The notes below the pieces were generated by a model. It was not told the DNA's origin, did no database searches, and saw only the letters and a list, made by a program, of their open reading frames with translations. Source: a virus (Duplodnaviria > Caudoviricetes). From it: a stretch of DNA of 59,340 nt. This document shows, one piece after another, positions 54,691 through 59,340 of the stretch; position 1 is the stretch's first letter, and every line of letters starts with the position of its first letter. The position numbers were made by a program, and so were the translations under genes. The stretch is from positions 1 through 59,340 of the IMG/VR virus record IMGVR_UViG_3300031578_000034; one strand, written 5' to 3'.

Positions 54691-55233
54691 TTACGTTGTC
54701 TCTAACGCAGATGTCCAGTACGAAATCGATGCTAGATGGTCCTTCCACTCAGTTGGAACACTGCTCAAATGACGCAGCTTGAACACAACGTAGGGTATGT
54801 TGCTAGGCATGTATGGTTGTTTCCTTAGTACCATGCCTGCGAGTGCTGGAGACTTAGCCCCCTTTCGCAGGTTGCACTGCATACATGCAATTACAATATT
54901 CGTCCAGTTGGTCTTCCCACCACGGGATCTTGGAACAACGTGGTCAAATGTTGCATCCTCTAGCGGAACAGAAGTCTGACAGTACTGGCACTTCCCTCCG
55001 TCCCGCAGATAAATGTTCTGCCGCGAAAACTTTATCTTGCGGCTCTTGCGGGTGATCGCACGCAGCAAGCGCACAACCGCTGGGAGCTTAATTGCAATAG
55101 AAGGCGATCTAACCTCTGTGTCGTACTCTTCGACCACTTCAACCTTACCAAGCCACATCAGGGTAACTGCCCTAGTCCAAGAAATAATTGTAACTGGCTG
55201 ATAGCCTGGATCTAGCAATAGTGTTCGTTGCAT
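54691..55233 (-). CDS. HNH endonuclease
   Basis: RDGGKCQYC...TFDHVVPRSRGG...NIVIACMQCN; start MQRT with GGAGG RBS. Confidence 0.9.
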   Translation of the reverse strand: MQRTLLLDPGYQPVTIISWTRAVTLMWLGKVEVVEEYDTEVRSPSIAIKLPAVVRLLRAITRKSRKIKFSRQNIYLRDGGKCQYCQTSVPLEDATFDHVVPRSRGGKTNWTNIVIACMQCNLRKGAKSPALAGMVLRKQPYMPSNIPYVVFKLRHLSSVPTEWKDHLASISYWTSALETT

Positions 55234-55256
55234 TTTCGATCTCCTCCCATATCTCC

Positions 55257-55288
55257 ACTGTAGCATACCGAGAAAAAGTGGATTAACT
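55257..55288 (-). promoter_or_regulatory. candidate late promoter AGTTAAT-N19-TACAGT
   Basis: Weaker motif copy. Confidence 0.4.
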
Positions 55289-55335
55289 TCCGAACAATAT
55301 TATACTGGGTTTTACACTTTTTGTACAGATAAAAA

Positions 55336-55415
55336 CGCTGGGAGAAGGATTCGAACCTCCGGTGTGTTATAACAGATTAACAGTCTGCTGCCATCGACCA
55401 CTCGGCCACCCCAGC
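55336..55415 (-). tRNA. tRNA-Asn(GTT), enlarged variable loop
   Basis: Acceptor GCTGGGG/TCCCAGC, anticodon arm GCAGA-CTGTTAA-TCTGT, T arm GGAGG-TTCGAAT-CCTTC, G73; CCA not encoded. Confidence 0.85.
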
Positions 55416-55416
55416 A

Positions 55417-56061
55417 TTATTTAATATTTATTTTATCTCGTTCTTTTTTGGTAAGTTTTTTAACTATTTTTGGATTTTTTCCATAGCTACGGAGCCACTT
55501 TCTGATTGCATTATCCGACACCCCATACTTCCTTCCCGCTCCGCAGTATCCTAACTCCTCTATTTCACTAATTAGTATATCTTTTTCAGGTCGATTTTTA
55601 ACTTTTCTTGTATCCAAAGCCCGACACCTATTAGAGCAATATTTGGTATACTTTGTTGCCCACCAATTGTCTAAAGACTTATTACATACTATACAATTTT
55701 GTATTGCCCTAGAAACCCTTTTTTTGTTTGTTTTCTTATATTTTTTGTAATTTGTAAAGCCCGCATTAAAGCTATTGTATTTTTTTGGCAGCATAGCACC
55801 ACCGTGGTGTAGCATTCTATGGCAATTCGCACAAAGCAGTACGCATTTTCGTAATTCTTTTACTATTGTACTCCATTTTCTCATAGCATTAATTCTAGTA
55901 GACATACCATGCTTTTTATCTTTTGGATCTAAATGGTGAAAATCAAATATACATTCTGGACCAGATACACCACAAATAGCACAATAACCACCAAATGCTG
56001 CAACCATTCTAGTTTTAGTTCTTTTTCTCCATGCAGCCACATAGTCTGATCCCTTACTCAT
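55417..56061 (-). CDS. HNH homing-type endonuclease with zinc finger and C-terminal HTH
   Basis: CAICG...FDFHHLDP...CVLLCANCHR; YCSNRC; GRKYGVSDNAIRKW; AT-rich, inserted between tRNAs. Confidence 0.85.
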   Translation of the reverse strand: MSKGSDYVAAWRKRTKTRMVAAFGGYCAICGVSGPECIFDFHHLDPKDKKHGMSTRINAMRKWSTIVKELRKCVLLCANCHRMLHHGGAMLPKKYNSFNAGFTNYKKYKKTNKKRVSRAIQNCIVCNKSLDNWWATKYTKYCSNRCRALDTRKVKNRPEKDILISEIEELGYCGAGRKYGVSDNAIRKWLRSYGKNPKIVKKLTKKERDKINIK

Positions 56062-56064
56062 TTC

Positions 56065-56117
56065 CTTAGCCTCCTCGGCTAAGAATTATAGTGCAGGATC
56101 AGACTACTTATTTAACT
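56065..56117 (-). promoter_or_regulatory. candidate late promoter AGTTAAA-N20-TATAAT with RBS hairpin
   Basis: Motif at 56085-56117; CTTAGCC-gagga-GGCTAAG hairpin over the RBS. Confidence 0.65.
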
Positions 56118-56138
56118 GTTGTTATACGTAGATTAATA

Positions 56139-56209
56139 TGGGCTTAGAAAGACTCGAACTTTCAACAGAAGTTTGTAGGACTTCCATGATCCCTTTTCAC
56201 CATAAGCCC
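56139..56209 (-). tRNA. tRNA-Val(TAC), C33
   Basis: GGGCTTA/TAAGCCC acceptor, GAAGT-CCTACAA-ACTTC anticodon arm, GAAAG-TTCGAGT-CTTTC T arm, A73. Confidence 0.8.
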
Positions 56210-56215
56210 AAAATA

Positions 56216-56289
56216 TGCCTCTGGTCAGATTCGAACTGACACTGTTTCGCTCCTTAGGCGAACGTCTCCTTCCTTTGGACTACAGAGGC
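56216..56289 (-). tRNA. tRNA with Leu anticodon AAG and short variable loop
   Basis: GCCTCTG/CAGAGGC acceptor, TTCGC-CTAAGGA-GCGAA anticodon arm, 5-nt variable loop, GTCAG-TTCGAAT-CTGAC T arm, A73. Confidence 0.85.
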
Positions 56290-56294
56290 GTCTT

Positions 56295-57620
56295 AGATTA
56301 TAAGGTGCTAAGCTACCAGTATTTTAAAAACAACCAGTCGCGGAGGCGTTTCTCCCACTGGCTCTGTCAGGGTACTAAAAAACTTTACTTTATCCCGCCA
56401 AAGATCCTGCCAAAATGGCGGGAAGCGACAGCTAAGCGGTCTGGAGTACCAGAACGCGCAAACTTTGTGCTACGGTGTCTGTCTGTTAGATTTCACAGAG
56501 CAACTATCGCCAGAGTTGCTGTGTGCGTGTCCGCAGGTTCATCCTAGGCAGTGCTGCTCTCTACAGAGCCCTGAACGCCCCGGCTACAGGGTGGATTATA
56601 CAGGTTCTCGCTCCTAGGCCTCTTGCCTTAGCACAAAAAAGCTATTGGGCATTAAGCAGTATTTCCTTGGCAGCTAACCAAGATTCATTCCCAGTTACCG
56701 CGCATCGTAAGTGATCAGCTTTCCTGGCCTGCGGGATTCACCAGTATAACGATGCTGCCCAATAAACAATTGCGGCACATGCTTCTCTAGACCTATGCTA
56801 ATGTGCTAACGTCCCGCCCACTCTGCGGGTTGTCGTGCCCAGAGCGCGGTATGGCCATCCTATTGGGTAGGCAATTGTGGCGTTTAAGAGCACATTACCA
56901 ACACGATTTGGTTGCACAAGTCAACCTAAAATGATATCTGCTAGGCCAGATTTTTCAACTGGCAACTCCATCAGGGCTCTTAACGGACTTGAGCTATCCT
57001 CTTGTCGGGGCTTCCCCAACGTTGCTCCGAGGATCTAGGCTCCTAAACCTAGAATCTCCCTCTGGGCTTTTCTTAAGCTACTAGCGGAAACTTTAAAATT
57101 AAAGCCTGTCGCGGATCCGCCGCACCGAAGGATCTCCTCCATCCCACAGGCTCTACGCTTACAACGCGAATGGCCTCATCGCCACCGGGACTCGCTTTCG
57201 CGTCGTCCTAGGCACCGTTACGGCGCCCCGCTGGTTCGCACAGCTACAAATCAAAGAACGTCTCCCTAGCGCCCCAACTAGAAAGCCGGCTCACTCATGG
57301 GCCACAACCAGCAGTGTGGGTACACCCACAGCCGCCAGTGTAGCCGGCTAGTGAACCTCGTGGCCGCTCCCATTTACCGACTGCCCGTTGCAGGCAGACC
57401 AGCCACACCCTTTTACTCGCCCTGCAGCAAATCCAGGGCGCGGGGGCTGCACCATTGCTACTTGGCTGGCTACCCCTTTCGCCCACAGTTGCTTCTAGCC
57501 CTCCACTGGTGTTCTCAGCTTCACTAGGCTAGTACCTGCAGACTCCAACCCAGGGCATCGCATCCCTGGATGTCACCGCAATATGTTGTCAAAGACCACC
57601 CACATTCGCTCTTCCCAATC
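56295..57620 (-). ncRNA. candidate giant structured non-coding RNA (GOLLD/ROOL-like context; boundaries approximate)
   Basis: No credible ORF over ~1.3 kb; dense nested inverted repeats; own promoter; tRNAs directly downstream. Confidence 0.75.
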
Positions 57621-57627
57621 TACAATC

Positions 57628-57656
57628 AGTATACGCGATCTAGATCCATTTGTCAA
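57628..57656 (-). promoter_or_regulatory. strong sigma70-like promoter TTGACA-N17-TATACT
   Basis: Near-consensus promoter firing into the non-coding region. Confidence 0.8.
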
Positions 57657-57676
57657 GCTGAAAGAGAGCCCACCAG

Positions 57677-58666
57677 CTATATTTTTATATGAGGAGTATT
57701 TTCTATTGTCGTAGCGTAACTTACACGCTGGAATACTGCTTTTTCTCGCAATTCTGTCAGTGTTCTTGCCCCGACAAGCCCCATCCCCTGACGAATTCCG
57801 TATAACAGCGTTTTGGCAACTTTCTCAGCGGGACCTTTGTTTGGGACATGTGTACTGATGCCCTCTGGAATGATCCCTCGTTTGTTAGCATGTGCGTCTG
57901 ACGAGGCTAATCCACGATAGATTTTTGTTCCTGTGCCGTCATCTAAGGTTTCATCTGTTCCCGCGAACAACCCACCGCACATAACAAATGAAGCTCCAGC
58001 TGCAAGTGCCTTAACGCAGTCCGCAGAACTTTTAGCGCCGCCGTCGGAAATTACGTTTGCTTCGTGTGCACATTCTATAACGGCAGATAGTTGTGGAACG
58101 CCACATCCCGTTACACGCCTGGTCAAACATACTGCCCCTGAGCCAACCCCACACTTGATATAGTCTACCTTCAATGAGCGTAAATCACATGCAGCATCAG
58201 ACGTAGCAACATTTCCAACAACCAGATACTTATCGCTGAAGGTTCTTTTAATCCAGAGAACTTCAGCAAAGATTGCTTCAGTATACGCGTACGCCACGTC
58301 CAAAAAGAATACGTCAACAATTGGCGCTAGCGCAGTAATGGCTGCTCTATCGTCTAAGCCAACAGCTGCAGCTACGGGCATCTTGTACTCATCTTTTAAC
58401 ATAGCTGCATATTTTGCTTCTTCAACACGCTCTTGTAATGTTCTATTTATCCTATTGAACGGCACGATTACACGGAGTGGTGCAAGAGCTTTCCACATGT
58501 CTGGAGTTGCAATATCAATCATATTTGCAACCATAATCGGAGCTAGCCTTTCATACCCAAAGGCGTCAATTGTATAATCCGCGTCGAGCCTACTTTTTAG
58601 TTTGCTGTAGCCTGGGCGCAGCAACACATCATCGAACGTTAATGCATCGTCATCGTAAAACCTCAT
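57677..58666 (-). CDS. IMP dehydrogenase / GMP reductase family (no CBS domains)
   Basis: LTFDDVLL.P, GNVAT, GVGSGAVCLTR..TGCGVPQ, SDGG..KALAAGA, YRGLAS and PEG. Confidence 0.9.
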   Translation of the reverse strand: MRFYDDDALTFDDVLLRPGYSKLKSRLDADYTIDAFGYERLAPIMVANMIDIATPDMWKALAPLRVIVPFNRINRTLQERVEEAKYAAMLKDEYKMPVAAAVGLDDRAAITALAPIVDVFFLDVAYAYTEAIFAEVLWIKRTFSDKYLVVGNVATSDAACDLRSLKVDYIKCGVGSGAVCLTRRVTGCGVPQLSAVIECAHEANVISDGGAKSSADCVKALAAGASFVMCGGLFAGTDETLDDGTGTKIYRGLASSDAHANKRGIIPEGISTHVPNKGPAEKVAKTLLYGIRQGMGLVGARTLTELREKAVFQRVSYATTIENTPHIKI

Positions 58667-59148
58667 TCGGCCTCTCCAGAAAACGTTATCAAAATATTTT
58701 TTAGGGCGAATTTAATCTGTGCGTAAGCAACGCCAGCGTTTGAAAACATAAGGCGTGCAGCCTTAGCTGAGTCTGACTCATGATACTTGTCTTCTAAGTA
58801 GTACACACGCGCTATGCCTGCTTGTATGATAAACTTAGCGCACTCATGGCACGGGAACAATGTACTATACAGCGTGCACCCCTCCGGGCGAATTATGCTG
58901 TTGTGCAGAGCGTTGACTTCAGCATGGCAAACAAATGGGTACTTCGTCTCCAGAAAGCTACCCTCTCGCGCCCATGGAAATGCATCTTCCTCGCAACCTC
59001 GCGGAAAGCCATTATACCCTATCCCGACAAGCTTATTGTCTGGGCTTGCAACGGTAGCACCCACTTTGGTGTTAGGATCTTTGCTGCGCTTCGCCGCTAG
59101 TAACGCGGCACCCATAAAAAACGCATTCCACGATATTGGTTTGTCCAT
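58663..59148 (-). CDS. dCMP deaminase
   Basis: RSKDPNTKVGA, GYNGFPRG, HAEVNA and FPCHECAKFIIQAGI. Confidence 0.92.
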   Translation of the reverse strand: MDKPISWNAFFMGAALLAAKRSKDPNTKVGATVASPDNKLVGIGYNGFPRGCEEDAFPWAREGSFLETKYPFVCHAEVNALHNSIIRPEGCTLYSTLFPCHECAKFIIQAGIARVYYLEDKYHESDSAKAARLMFSNAGVAYAQIKFALKNILITFSGEAE

Positions 59149-59161
59149 GCATTCTCCAAAA

Positions 59162-59232
59162 AGCCCGCACCCGGAATTGAACCGGGATCACTAACTTACC
59201 ACGCTAGTGCTCTACCATTGAGCTACGCGGGC
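59162..59232 (-). tRNA. tRNA-Thr(GGT)
   Basis: GCCCGCG/TGCGGGC acceptor, CTAGC-GTGGTAA-GTTAG anticodon arm, TTCAATT T loop. Confidence 0.88.
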
Positions 59233-59235
59233 GCA

Positions 59236-59308
59236 AGCCGCCGAGAGGAATCGAACCTCCAACCTGCTGATTACAGGTCAGCTGCTCTGCCAGTTGAGCT
59301 ACAGCGGC
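59236..59308 (-). tRNA. tRNA-Thr(TGT), C33
   Basis: GCCGCTG/CGGCGGC acceptor, GCTGA-CCTGTAA-TCAGC anticodon arm, TTCGATT T loop. Confidence 0.88.
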
Positions 59309-59340
59309 ATTTTTACTTTATTCTCTTTCTGCTTTTTTTT

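What the first reader, a model, noticed from the sequence alone, without database searches (positions are those of the whole stretch)
56295..57656. Candidate ~1.3 kb giant structured ncRNA with its own promoter, leading into tRNAs
Seen: the largest gap in a gene-dense genome, with only short RBS-less ORFs. A near-perfect TTGACA-N17-TATACT (57656-57628) points into it. Perfect helices occur throughout, many nested or long-range: 56393-400/56416-23, 56499-505/56514-20, 56643-51/56756-64 enclosing 56702-08/56749-55, 56766-73/56871-78 enclosing 56775-80/56801-06, 56884-91/56976-83, 57103-09/57146-52, 57348-55/57520-27 enclosing 57399-405/57463-69 and 57418-24/57434-40. There is a CGC-GAAA-GCG tetraloop on the minus strand. 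Known: GOLLD and ROOL are large ornate RNAs often found beside phage tRNA clusters and are typically shorter than this. Inference: an extended member, two tandem RNAs, or a new class. RNase P cleavage at the downstream tRNA could release its 3' end. Together with the atypical tRNAs and the Hfq-like ORF, this is the best candidate for an undescribed RNA-based system.
Basis: partly seen in the sequence, partly recalled or inferred. Interest (0 to 1): 0.9.

Follow-up and report, generated by a model that had tools for sequence, protein, structure and literature searches.

The report
Orphan 1.3-kb candidate phage RNA gene
A 1.3-kb stretch of a giant soil phage has its own promoter and terminator, no protein-coding signal and an unusually stable predicted fold, so it is probably a gene for a very large non-coding RNA of no known family, but no relatives could be found to prove it.

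Summary
The window is a 59-kb fragment of an uncultured soil jumbo phage. Between the GMP-reductase-like gene and two tRNA genes lies a unit on the minus strand. It has a sigma-70-type promoter (57656-57628), about 1,295 nt without a credible ORF, and an intrinsic terminator (56363-56326).

For an RNA gene:
- The promoter belongs to a class found 5 times in the window against 0.56 expected.
- All six frames carry all three stop codons, and there is no period-3 signal, unlike 8 of 8 coding controls.
- The full-length fold has z = -5.4 on the minus strand; four coding controls of equal length give +0.3 to -2.0.

Against, or untested:
- The fold is not unusually well defined.
- Rfam 15 gives no hit, GOLLD and ROOL included.
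- No homologue turned up in any collection I could reach, so covariation is untestable.
- No RNA run holds the stretch, so expression is untested.

The terminator and a strain breakpoint at 56326 argue against release by RNase P at the tRNA. No other window of this scan resembles it by sequence; the scan has flagged unrelated large jumbo-phage RNAs elsewhere. Verdict: a plausible new large phage ncRNA, confidence about 0.5.

The parts
57628..57656 (-). Sigma-70-type promoter (-35 TTGACA, 17-nt spacer, -10 TATACT); inferred start of transcription near 57621
   Evidence: 11 of 12 matches, the best of the 6 promoter-like sites in 55000-59340; the extended form CTTGAC-N18-TAT occurs 5 times in the window against 0.56 expected (0 of 100 shuffles reach 5). 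All five copies lie between ORFs and face the next unit (938+, 50346-, 51536-, 52515-, 57631-). The start site is inferred from spacing, not measured.
56326..57621 (-). Body of the candidate non-coding RNA, about 1,295 nt
   Evidence: - All six frames hold TAA, TAG and TGA.
- Period-3 power is 0.4 (179 of 200 shuffles reach it) against 2.4-23.9 in 8 of 8 coding controls.
- Pfam finds nothing below E = 0.019 in the 10 longest stop-to-stop frames.
- 0 of 10 ORFs tried were ever called as proteins in the 15-billion-protein collection.
- MFE is -522 kcal/mol on the minus strand against -447 on the plus strand; z = -5.4 against -3.4.
57088..57621 (-). 5' G+C-rich half (G+C about 0.58-0.62): a string of hairpins including a roughly 70-nt irregular hairpin (57357-57288) and a GNRA-capped hairpin
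   Evidence: MFE -230 kcal/mol, z = -3.0, 0 of 100 shuffles fold as well; 200-nt windows give z of -2.1 to -2.7 on the minus strand but -0.1 to -0.9 on the plus strand at 57200-57699 (except -1.0 against +0.2 at 57400-57599); helices with pair probability 0.9-1.0.
57188..57208 (-). Hairpin capped by a GAAA tetraloop (CGC-GAAA-GCG)
   Evidence: locates it.: -9.4 kcal/mol, z = -4.3, 0 of 200 shuffles fold as well.
57063..57107 (-). A+U-rich central linker with a weak hairpin; hypervariable between strains
   Evidence: in run X4, 8 of the 11 listed substitution places and all 3 indel places of the RNA stretch fall in 57063-57101. The rest of the unit shows 3 substitution places; hairpin 57107-57100 / 57095-57088.
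56367..57087 (-). 3' half (G+C about 0.51), predicted to pair back onto the end of the 5' half
   Evidence: z = -2.75, 0 of 20 shuffles fold as well. On its own it is no better defined than shuffles (16 of 18 shuffles have lower ensemble diversity).
56702..57167 (-). Predicted long-range three-helix stack joining the two halves: 57167-57158/56711-56702 (10 bp), 57151-57141/56737-56727 (11 bp), 57086-57079/56746-56739 (8 bp)
Evidence: pair probabilities 0.97, 0.99 and 0.93. The whole molecule folds 22 kcal/mol better than the sum of its halves.
56326..56363 (-). Intrinsic-terminator-like hairpin (56363-56332) followed by a U-rich tail (UUGUUUUU); inferred 3' end of the RNA
   Evidence: -15.3 kcal/mol, z = -2.3, 4 of 200 shuffles fold as well; a contig of run X5 replaces 55334-56325 with 240 other letters and rejoins the window exactly at 56326. 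The simple terminator scan did not list it; the stem is bulged.

Best explanation
The stretch is a stand-alone gene for one large, highly base-paired non-coding RNA of about 1.3 kb. Host RNA polymerase would transcribe it from a sigma-70-type promoter of the same class that heads the phage's MoxR/vWA genes, and a terminator hairpin would end it just before the tRNA genes.

The RNA is predicted to fold into a G+C-rich 5' half and a 3' half. A stack of long-range helices ties them together around a variable A+U-rich linker.

By analogy with GOLLD and ROOL, I propose that it acts as RNA: a folded scaffold or decoy made during infection, not a message and not a tRNA precursor.

Shown here: the unit's boundaries as sequence signals, the absence of coding signal, and the folding-energy excess. 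Inferred: that it is transcribed, that the predicted fold is the real one, and any function.
For: 1. Promoter: 11 of 12 matches, and one of 5 copies of CTTGAC-N18-TAT in the window against 0.56 expected (0 of 100 shuffles), all between ORFs and facing a downstream unit.
2. Terminator: -15.3 kcal/mol plus a U-rich tail. A natural strain breakpoint lies exactly at its end.
3. Non-coding: all three stops occur in all six frames. Period-3 power is 0.4 against 2.4-23.9 in 8 of 8 coding controls. The 10 longest frames have no Pfam match. 0 of 10 ORFs were ever called as proteins. Only two TTG ORFs of 31-32 aa have a weak ribosome-binding motif.
4. Folding: z = -5.4 on the minus strand against -3.4 on the plus strand. 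Four coding controls of the same length give +0.3, -0.2, -0.6 and -2.0. Each half alone beats every shuffle (0 of 100, 0 of 20).
5. Strain variants: the unit is kept in assemblies of four further soil runs, and contigs bridge both of its borders. The 3 substitutions outside the variable linker all spare the predicted fold: 56772 turns a C-G pair into U-G, and 57156 and 57470 are unpaired.
6. Setting: it lies next to phage tRNA genes, as is often the case for GOLLD and ROOL (PMC12286853, passages).
Against: - No homologue was found, so there is no covariation and no proof of selection on the fold.
- No expression data exist.
- Perfect helices are not more numerous than in shuffles.
- The ensemble is not unusually well defined: for the 5' half 7 of 30 shuffles are as well defined, and the 3' half is worse than 16 of 18 shuffles.
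- Local 200-nt windows in 56400-56999 have z near 0.
- Away from the linker, strain substitutions are no rarer than in the neighbouring GMP-reductase-like gene: about 2 in 560 nt against 3 in 1,660 nt in run X4.
- Two X4 changes (57071, 57072) break a predicted helix (57078-57071/56931-56924, probability 0.52) with no compensating change.
- The z-score of the whole rests on 25 shuffles.
- Only one GNRA tetraloop was seen.
Confidence: 0.5

Rival explanations
1. There are two tandem non-coding RNAs rather than one. The first, about 530 nt (57621 to about 57090), would be closed by pairing of its own ends and finish at a branched hairpin followed by an A/U-rich tail. The second, about 600 nt, would start at a weaker promoter (56958-56931) and end at the 56326 terminator.
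For: - Folded alone, the 5' half closes on itself and ends with the hairpin 57154-57104 followed by an A/U-rich tail (UUUAAUUUUAAAGUUU).
- A promoter-like site TTGAAA-N16-TATCAT lies at 56958-56931 (10 of 12).
- The two halves differ in G+C (0.58-0.62 against 0.51).
- The hypervariable linker lies between them.
- Sizes of 530-600 nt would be near those of ROOL (my recollection).
Against: - The internal hairpin is branched and not exceptional (z = -1.3; 25 of 200 shuffles fold as well).
- The internal promoter is one of 6 sites where 5.6 are expected by chance, and it is not of the CTTGAC-N18-TAT class.
- The whole molecule gains 22 kcal/mol over the halves through a long-range stack with pair probabilities of 0.93-0.99.
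Confidence: 0.17
2. The stretch is non-functional DNA: a spacer or a scrap of foreign, G+C-richer DNA in a variable accessory region. It may be transcribed by read-through, but its fold is not under selection.
For: - It is an orphan. Blastn finds nothing in 50,697 phage records or 72,556 plasmid records.
- Nothing appears in 110 whole IMG/VR records or with nhmmer on 91 loci and 7 whole relatives.
- The neighbouring GMP-reductase-like gene is absent from 14 of 14 terminase relatives, so the region is accessory.
- The adjacent tRNA/HNH block is swapped between strains.
- Substitution density is not lower than in the coding flanks.
- The fold is not well defined.
Against: - A decayed gene should keep some period-3 signal; there is none.
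- Junk DNA does not explain a promoter of the phage's own recurrent class placed exactly at its head, a terminator at its tail, or z = -5.4 with strand asymmetry.
- The genome is otherwise tightly packed.
Confidence: 0.2
3. The stretch is an untranslated extension of a neighbouring unit: a long 3' UTR of the deaminase/GMP-reductase operon, or a long leader that is co-transcribed with tRNA-Leu and tRNA-Val and released by RNase P. The second is the first reader's idea.
For: - Only 20 nt separate the stop codon of the GMP-reductase-like gene (57677) from the -35 element, and no terminator was found between them.
- The tRNAs follow 36 nt after the unit on the same strand.
Against: - The unit has its own promoter and its own terminator.
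- A perfect TATAAT lies at 56302-56297, 7 nt before the mature 5' end of tRNA-Leu (read by eye), so the tRNAs may have their own start.
- A strain variant keeps the unit but replaces the whole tRNA block.
Confidence: 0.08
4. The stretch is protein-coding after all, through small ORFs or an altered genetic code, or it is a DNA-level element such as a replication origin or a packaging site.
For: The stretch contains short ORFs of up to 76 aa. Large phage gaps sometimes hold origins (general knowledge).
Against: - Every frame has all three stop codons, at least 1-15 of each, so no single reassignment opens a frame.
- There is no period-3 signal, no Pfam hit and no ATG ORF with a ribosome-binding site.
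- There are no iterons or other repeats: only two two-copy families of 12-13 nt.
- The stretch is G+C-rich, not A+T-rich.
Confidence: 0.05

Closest known systems
GOLLD RNA (Rfam RF01998)
   Same: Both are very large structured RNA genes in a phage next to tRNA genes. [quoted passage not shown] Function is unknown for both.
   Different: There is no match to the Rfam model at gathering score or at E <= 10. This candidate is about 1.3 kb, roughly half as long again. No homologues exist, so conserved features cannot be compared, and oligomer formation is untested.
ROOL RNA (Rfam RF03087)
   Same: Both are phage-borne, near tRNA islands and heavily paired. ROOL has a poorly conserved, disordered internal linker (PMC12286853, passages). 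This candidate has a hypervariable A+U-rich linker in the middle.
   Different: There is no match to the Rfam model. This candidate is about twice the length; ROOL's size of about 580 nt is my recollection. The linker parallel is an analogy only.
Other unclassified large jumbo-phage RNAs flagged earlier in this scan (for example e1-123075 and e1-5410634; AI notes)
   Same: Each is an ORF-free, G+C-richer unit running from promoter to terminator in a giant phage, with no Rfam family.
   Different: Those are 0.35-0.65 kb and were reported as conserved in many related phages. This one is about 1.3 kb, shares no sequence with any other window of the scan, and has no known relatives.

Membership tests
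GOLLD (RF01998) | Match to the family's covariance model (sequence plus structure) at the curated score | tested here: not met
   (whole window, gathering score) returned only 5 tRNAs. One search (56100-57800, E <= 10, permissive filters) returned no GOLLD match.
GOLLD (RF01998) | Encoded in phages or prophages, often beside tRNA genes | tested here: met
   It is a phage record. tRNA-Leu and tRNA-Val lie 36 nt downstream, and two tRNA-Thr genes 1.5 kb upstream.
ROOL (RF03087) | Match to the family's covariance model at the curated score | tested here: not met
   no match.
GOLLD / ROOL | Homo-oligomeric RNA-only cage held by kissing loops and A-minor contacts | not testable with these tools
   This needs cryo-EM or native sizing. 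The palindrome CCUAGG occurs 3 times in the unit (3 of the window's 8), but in the predicted fold it sits in stems, not loops.
Other large or catalytic RNAs in Rfam (OLE, raiA, HEARO, RNase P, tmRNA, group I and II introns, rRNA) | Match to the covariance model | tested here: not met
   at E <= 10 the only non-tRNA matches are BTH_s39 (18 bits, cut-off 77) and AAC_AAD_leader (15 bits, cut-off 56).
Structured non-coding RNA gene (generic) | No protein-coding signal | tested here: met
Structured non-coding RNA gene (generic) | Own promoter and terminator | tested here: met
   These are sequence signals only.
Structured non-coding RNA gene (generic) | Folding energy beyond shuffled sequence, stronger on the transcribed strand | tested here: met
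   Well-definedness of the ensemble was not met.
Structured non-coding RNA gene (generic) | Compensatory base changes (covariation) across homologues | not testable with these tools
   No homologue was found. Near-identical strains give only 3 informative substitutions, all compatible with the fold.
Structured non-coding RNA gene (generic) | A discrete transcript | not testable with these tools
   No RNA run was available (see Tried and rejected).

The most novel reading that the evidence does not exclude
A single RNA of about 1.3 kb forms a new class of giant ornate phage RNA, half as long again as typical GOLLD. It would have two folded halves clamped by long-range helices around a free, fast-evolving linker, be made early from a host-type promoter beside the tRNA island, and act as an RNA-only scaffold or decoy during infection of a soil bacterium.
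Probability: 0.3. Interest if true: 0.75.

Novelty: new variant of a known kind. Interest (0 to 1): 0.5.

Why it matters
Very large structured RNAs without a known job are rare. GOLLD, ROOL and OLE were recently shown to build RNA-only cages and dimers (PMC12286853, abstract and passages), and why phages carry them next to tRNA genes is still unknown.

A further, unrelated and even larger example in a soil jumbo phage would widen that class. It would also give a new object for structural work and show that such RNAs arise repeatedly in giant phages. Because this one is an orphan, its value depends on showing that it is transcribed and on finding relatives.

Tried and rejected
Known RNA families
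- Rfam 15 on the whole window at gathering score and on 56100-57800 at E <= 10: nothing but tRNAs and two junk matches.
- ARAGORN finds no tRNA or tmRNA inside the unit.

Homologues by DNA
- Blastn (11-base words) against 50,697 phage records and 72,556 plasmid records: no match.
- Exact-pattern scans of IMG/VR with two 19-20-mers and one gapped motif from the unit: 0 stretches each.
- One 20-mer against the JGI metagenome contigs: 0 stretches.

Homologues by synteny
- GMP-reductase-like protein in IMG/VR: 11 and 80 loci, all at most 40% identical. nhmmer with the unit on these 91 loci (1.07 Mb) found nothing.
- The same protein, aligned with its 77% relative, in the metagenome contigs: 264 pattern stretches, 0 relatives.
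- Its 49% relative P0032 in GTDB genomes: 18 loci, all 39-46% identical and mostly in named bacterial genomes; P0032's own contig is not held.

Homologues by phage kinship
- Terminase alone in IMG/VR: nothing.
- The protein search showed relatives at 71, 63 and 62% (Logan and ENA only) and many at about 50%.
- An alignment of 34 of them retrieved 80 IMG/VR loci.
- BLAST of the unit against 14 + 50 + 46 whole records found nothing at E <= 0.01; the best was E = 0.085 over 16 nt. L115, L116, L009, L010, L012 and L002 were not held and so were not searched.
- nhmmer on 7 whole relatives (0.72 Mb): nothing.
- A single-sequence covariance model of a 169-nt sub-domain found itself (E = 6.5e-49) and nothing in 48 other records at E <= 1.
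- The GMP-reductase-like gene is absent from 14 of 14 relatives.

Spurious-ORF route: 0 of 10 ORFs of the unit are in the protein collection.

Expression: no RNA holder was listed, so nothing can be said either way.

Strain variants: too close (about 99%) for covariation.

Rejected ideas
- Kissing through CCUAGG palindromes: they lie in predicted stems, and the longer motif is not enriched.
- Internal duplication: none.
- Shared motif with the repeat array of a related phage: absent from the unit.

Supplementary files of papers were not consulted.
Full report
WHERE IT IS
The window is one IMG/VR virus record of 59,340 bases that CheckV rates 19% complete. Near-identical DNA is held only by soil metagenome runs. 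It encodes a major head protein, a portal and a large terminase. The terminase is at most 29% identical to that of any deposited phage (Virus Rctr197k, PaBG, phiRSL1). It is 44-54% identical over the full length (62% over a 185-residue piece) to uncultured IMG/VR phages; the one complete relative, closed by terminal repeats, is 184 kb. So this is a fragment of an uncultured soil jumbo phage. Nearly all genes lie on the minus strand.

ANATOMY OF THE FINDING
On the minus strand the order is: two tRNA-Thr genes, a dCMP deaminase, a GMP-reductase/IMPDH-like gene (57677-58666; Pfam IMPDH, E = 8.6e-69), the flagged stretch, tRNA-Leu(AAG) 56216-56289, tRNA-Val 56138-56210, an HNH-like gene, and tRNA-Asn.

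It occurs 5 times in the window against 0.56 expected (0 of 100 shuffles reach 5). Every copy lies between ORFs and faces the next unit: the ORF at 986, the vWA, MoxR and DUF6744 genes, and this stretch. That makes the promoter much more credible than a single consensus match.

At the other end I found a hairpin at 56363-56332 (-15.3 kcal/mol; 4 of 200 shuffles fold as well) followed by a U-rich tail, UUGUUUUU. A contig of run X5 replaces 55334-56325, which holds tRNA-Asn, the HNH gene, tRNA-Val and tRNA-Leu, with 240 other letters. It rejoins the window exactly at 56326. The unit is therefore about 57621 to about 56326, some 1,295 nt, and it is separable from the tRNAs. A perfect TATAAT at 56302-56297, 7 nt before the tRNA-Leu 5' end (read by eye), suggests that the tRNAs have their own start.

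IS IT NON-CODING?
- All six frames hold all three stop codons, so no single stop reassignment opens a frame.
- The longest ORF wholly inside is 76 aa.
- The 10 longest stop-to-stop frames have no Pfam match below E = 0.019.
- None of the 10 ORFs I looked up was ever called as a protein in the 15-billion-protein collection.
- Only two TTG-start ORFs of 31-32 aa have even a weak ribosome-binding motif.
- Period-3 power is 0.4 (179 of 200 shuffles reach it). In 8 of 8 coding controls it is 2.4-23.9, and at most 4 of 200 shuffles reach it.

So the stretch is not a gene, and it is not a recently decayed one.

IS IT STRUCTURED BEYOND CHANCE?
But such complements are no more numerous than in dinucleotide shuffles: 20, 17, 33 and 95 of 200 shuffles reach the observed counts for k = 7 to 10. 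The list is therefore not evidence.

The folding energy is evidence.
- The minus strand folds to -522 kcal/mol against -447 for the plus strand.
- For the 1,297-nt unit z = -5.4 on the minus strand and -3.4 on the plus strand, with 25 shuffles each.
- Four coding controls of equal length give +0.3 (-1.2 on its other strand), -0.2, -0.6 and -2.0.
- The 5' half alone has z = -3.0 (0 of 100 shuffles fold as well) and the 3' half -2.75 (0 of 20).
- In 200-nt windows the excess is strand-specific in 57200-57700 and absent in 56400-56999.

The predicted fold joins the halves through three stacked long-range helices with pair probabilities of 0.93-0.99. The whole folds 22 kcal/mol better than its halves.

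Against this, the ensemble is not unusually well defined. For the 5' half 7 of 30 shuffles are as well defined, and the 3' half is worse than 16 of 18 shuffles.

STRAIN VARIANTS
Contigs of four further soil runs carry the unit and bridge both of its borders, so it is not an assembly chimera. Run X4 shows 11 listed substitution places and 3 indel places in the unit. Eight of the substitutions and all the indels fall in 57063-57101, the A+U-rich middle.

The 3 substitutions elsewhere spare the predicted fold: one C-G pair becomes U-G, and two lie in unpaired positions. One change at the edge of the cluster (57086) also keeps its pair as U-G. Two others (57071, 57072) break a weakly predicted helix without compensation.

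Outside the linker the substitution density is not lower than in the neighbouring gene. These data are compatible with a fold but do not prove one.

HOMOLOGUES
None was found. Every search I ran came back empty: blastn against phages and plasmids, pattern scans of IMG/VR and of the JGI metagenome contigs, synteny searches through the GMP-reductase-like gene, kinship searches through the terminase followed by BLAST of 110 whole IMG/VR records, nhmmer on 0.72 Mb of relatives, and a covariance model of a 169-nt sub-domain that did find itself.

The GMP-reductase-like gene is missing from 14 of 14 terminase relatives, so the whole neighbourhood is an accessory region.

Closer relatives exist only in Logan and ENA assemblies: a 77% GMP-reductase-like protein and terminases at 62-71%. 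Covariation, the decisive computational test, therefore could not be run.

WHAT IT MOST LIKELY IS
The best reading, at confidence 0.5, is a stand-alone, host-polymerase-transcribed gene for one large structured non-coding RNA. Its boundaries, its non-coding nature and its energy excess are shown. Transcription, the actual fold and any function are inferred.

By analogy with GOLLD and ROOL I propose an RNA-only scaffold or decoy. Those RNAs are phage-borne, often lie near tRNA islands and have no known function; ROOL also has a disordered internal linker (PMC12286853, abstract and passages read).

The rivals are:
- two tandem RNAs of about 0.55 kb (0.17);
- unselected accessory DNA (0.20);
- a UTR or tRNA leader (0.08);
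- coding sequence or a DNA-level element (0.05).

COMPARISON WITH WHAT IS KNOWN
It works like, or at least sits like, GOLLD and ROOL, but it is not a member of either family: their covariance models do not match. Two full-text literature searches (GOLLD plus ROOL; 'jumbo phage' plus 'large noncoding RNA') listed no paper describing an RNA of this size in jumbo phages. I read only the listings and passages of one paper.

This scan has flagged other unclassified large RNAs in jumbo phages. None shares sequence with this one.

VERDICT
This is a well-bounded, non-coding unit with an energy excess that is probably a new large phage RNA. It is an orphan whose structure and expression remain unproven. 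Interest 0.5. If the single 1.3-kb ornate RNA is real (probability about 0.3), it would merit about 0.75.

Noticed in passing
window 55334-56325: A contig of soil run X5 replaces this whole block (tRNA-Asn, the 214-aa HNH-like gene, tRNA-Val, tRNA-Leu) with 240 other letters, while the flanks stay nearly identical. The tRNA/HNH cassette is therefore polymorphic between strains of this phage.
   Followed up: partly
window 56297-56302 (minus strand): A perfect -10 hexamer TATAAT lies 7 nt before the mature 5' end of tRNA-Leu(AAG), with a poor -35. It may be a separate promoter for the tRNA pair (read by eye).
   Followed up: no
window 938, 50346, 51536, 52515, 57631: There are five copies of CTTGAC-N18-TAT against 0.56 expected. 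They head an ORF at 986, the vWA, MoxR and DUF6744 genes, and the RNA unit. This is probably the phage's host-polymerase (early) promoter class.
   Followed up: yes
L229:4174-5120 (minus strand; record G002, terminase about 51% identical): An ORF-free stretch of about 950 nt lies directly beside three tRNA genes and folds with z = -8.7 (0 of 20 shuffles). It is an array of units 127-172 nt apart, each with a conserved 33-nt motif (5 copies) and some with tRNA T-arm-like sequence. ARAGORN and Rfam call no tRNA in it. It has no sequence likeness to the unit studied here.
   Followed up: partly
L202:3900-4950 (record G009, complete 184-kb relative): An 805-nt ORF-free stretch with G+C 0.55 sits in a genome of 0.42, just upstream of the terminase gene, and carries four copies of a 13-nt motif (GTTCTTTGAAAAG or near it). 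It has no Rfam match at gathering score. It may be another set of small RNA genes.
   Followed up: no
window 56543, 56613, 57207: Three of the window's eight CCTAGG palindromes fall inside the 1.3-kb unit, which is 2% of the window. Two of them share the longer form GCCTAGGA-N-GA, but that longer form is not enriched overall.
   Followed up: partly
window 57677-59148: The GMP-reductase-like gene next to the unit is absent from 14 of 14 terminase relatives searched. This end of the window is therefore an accessory region of the phage lineage.
   Followed up: partly
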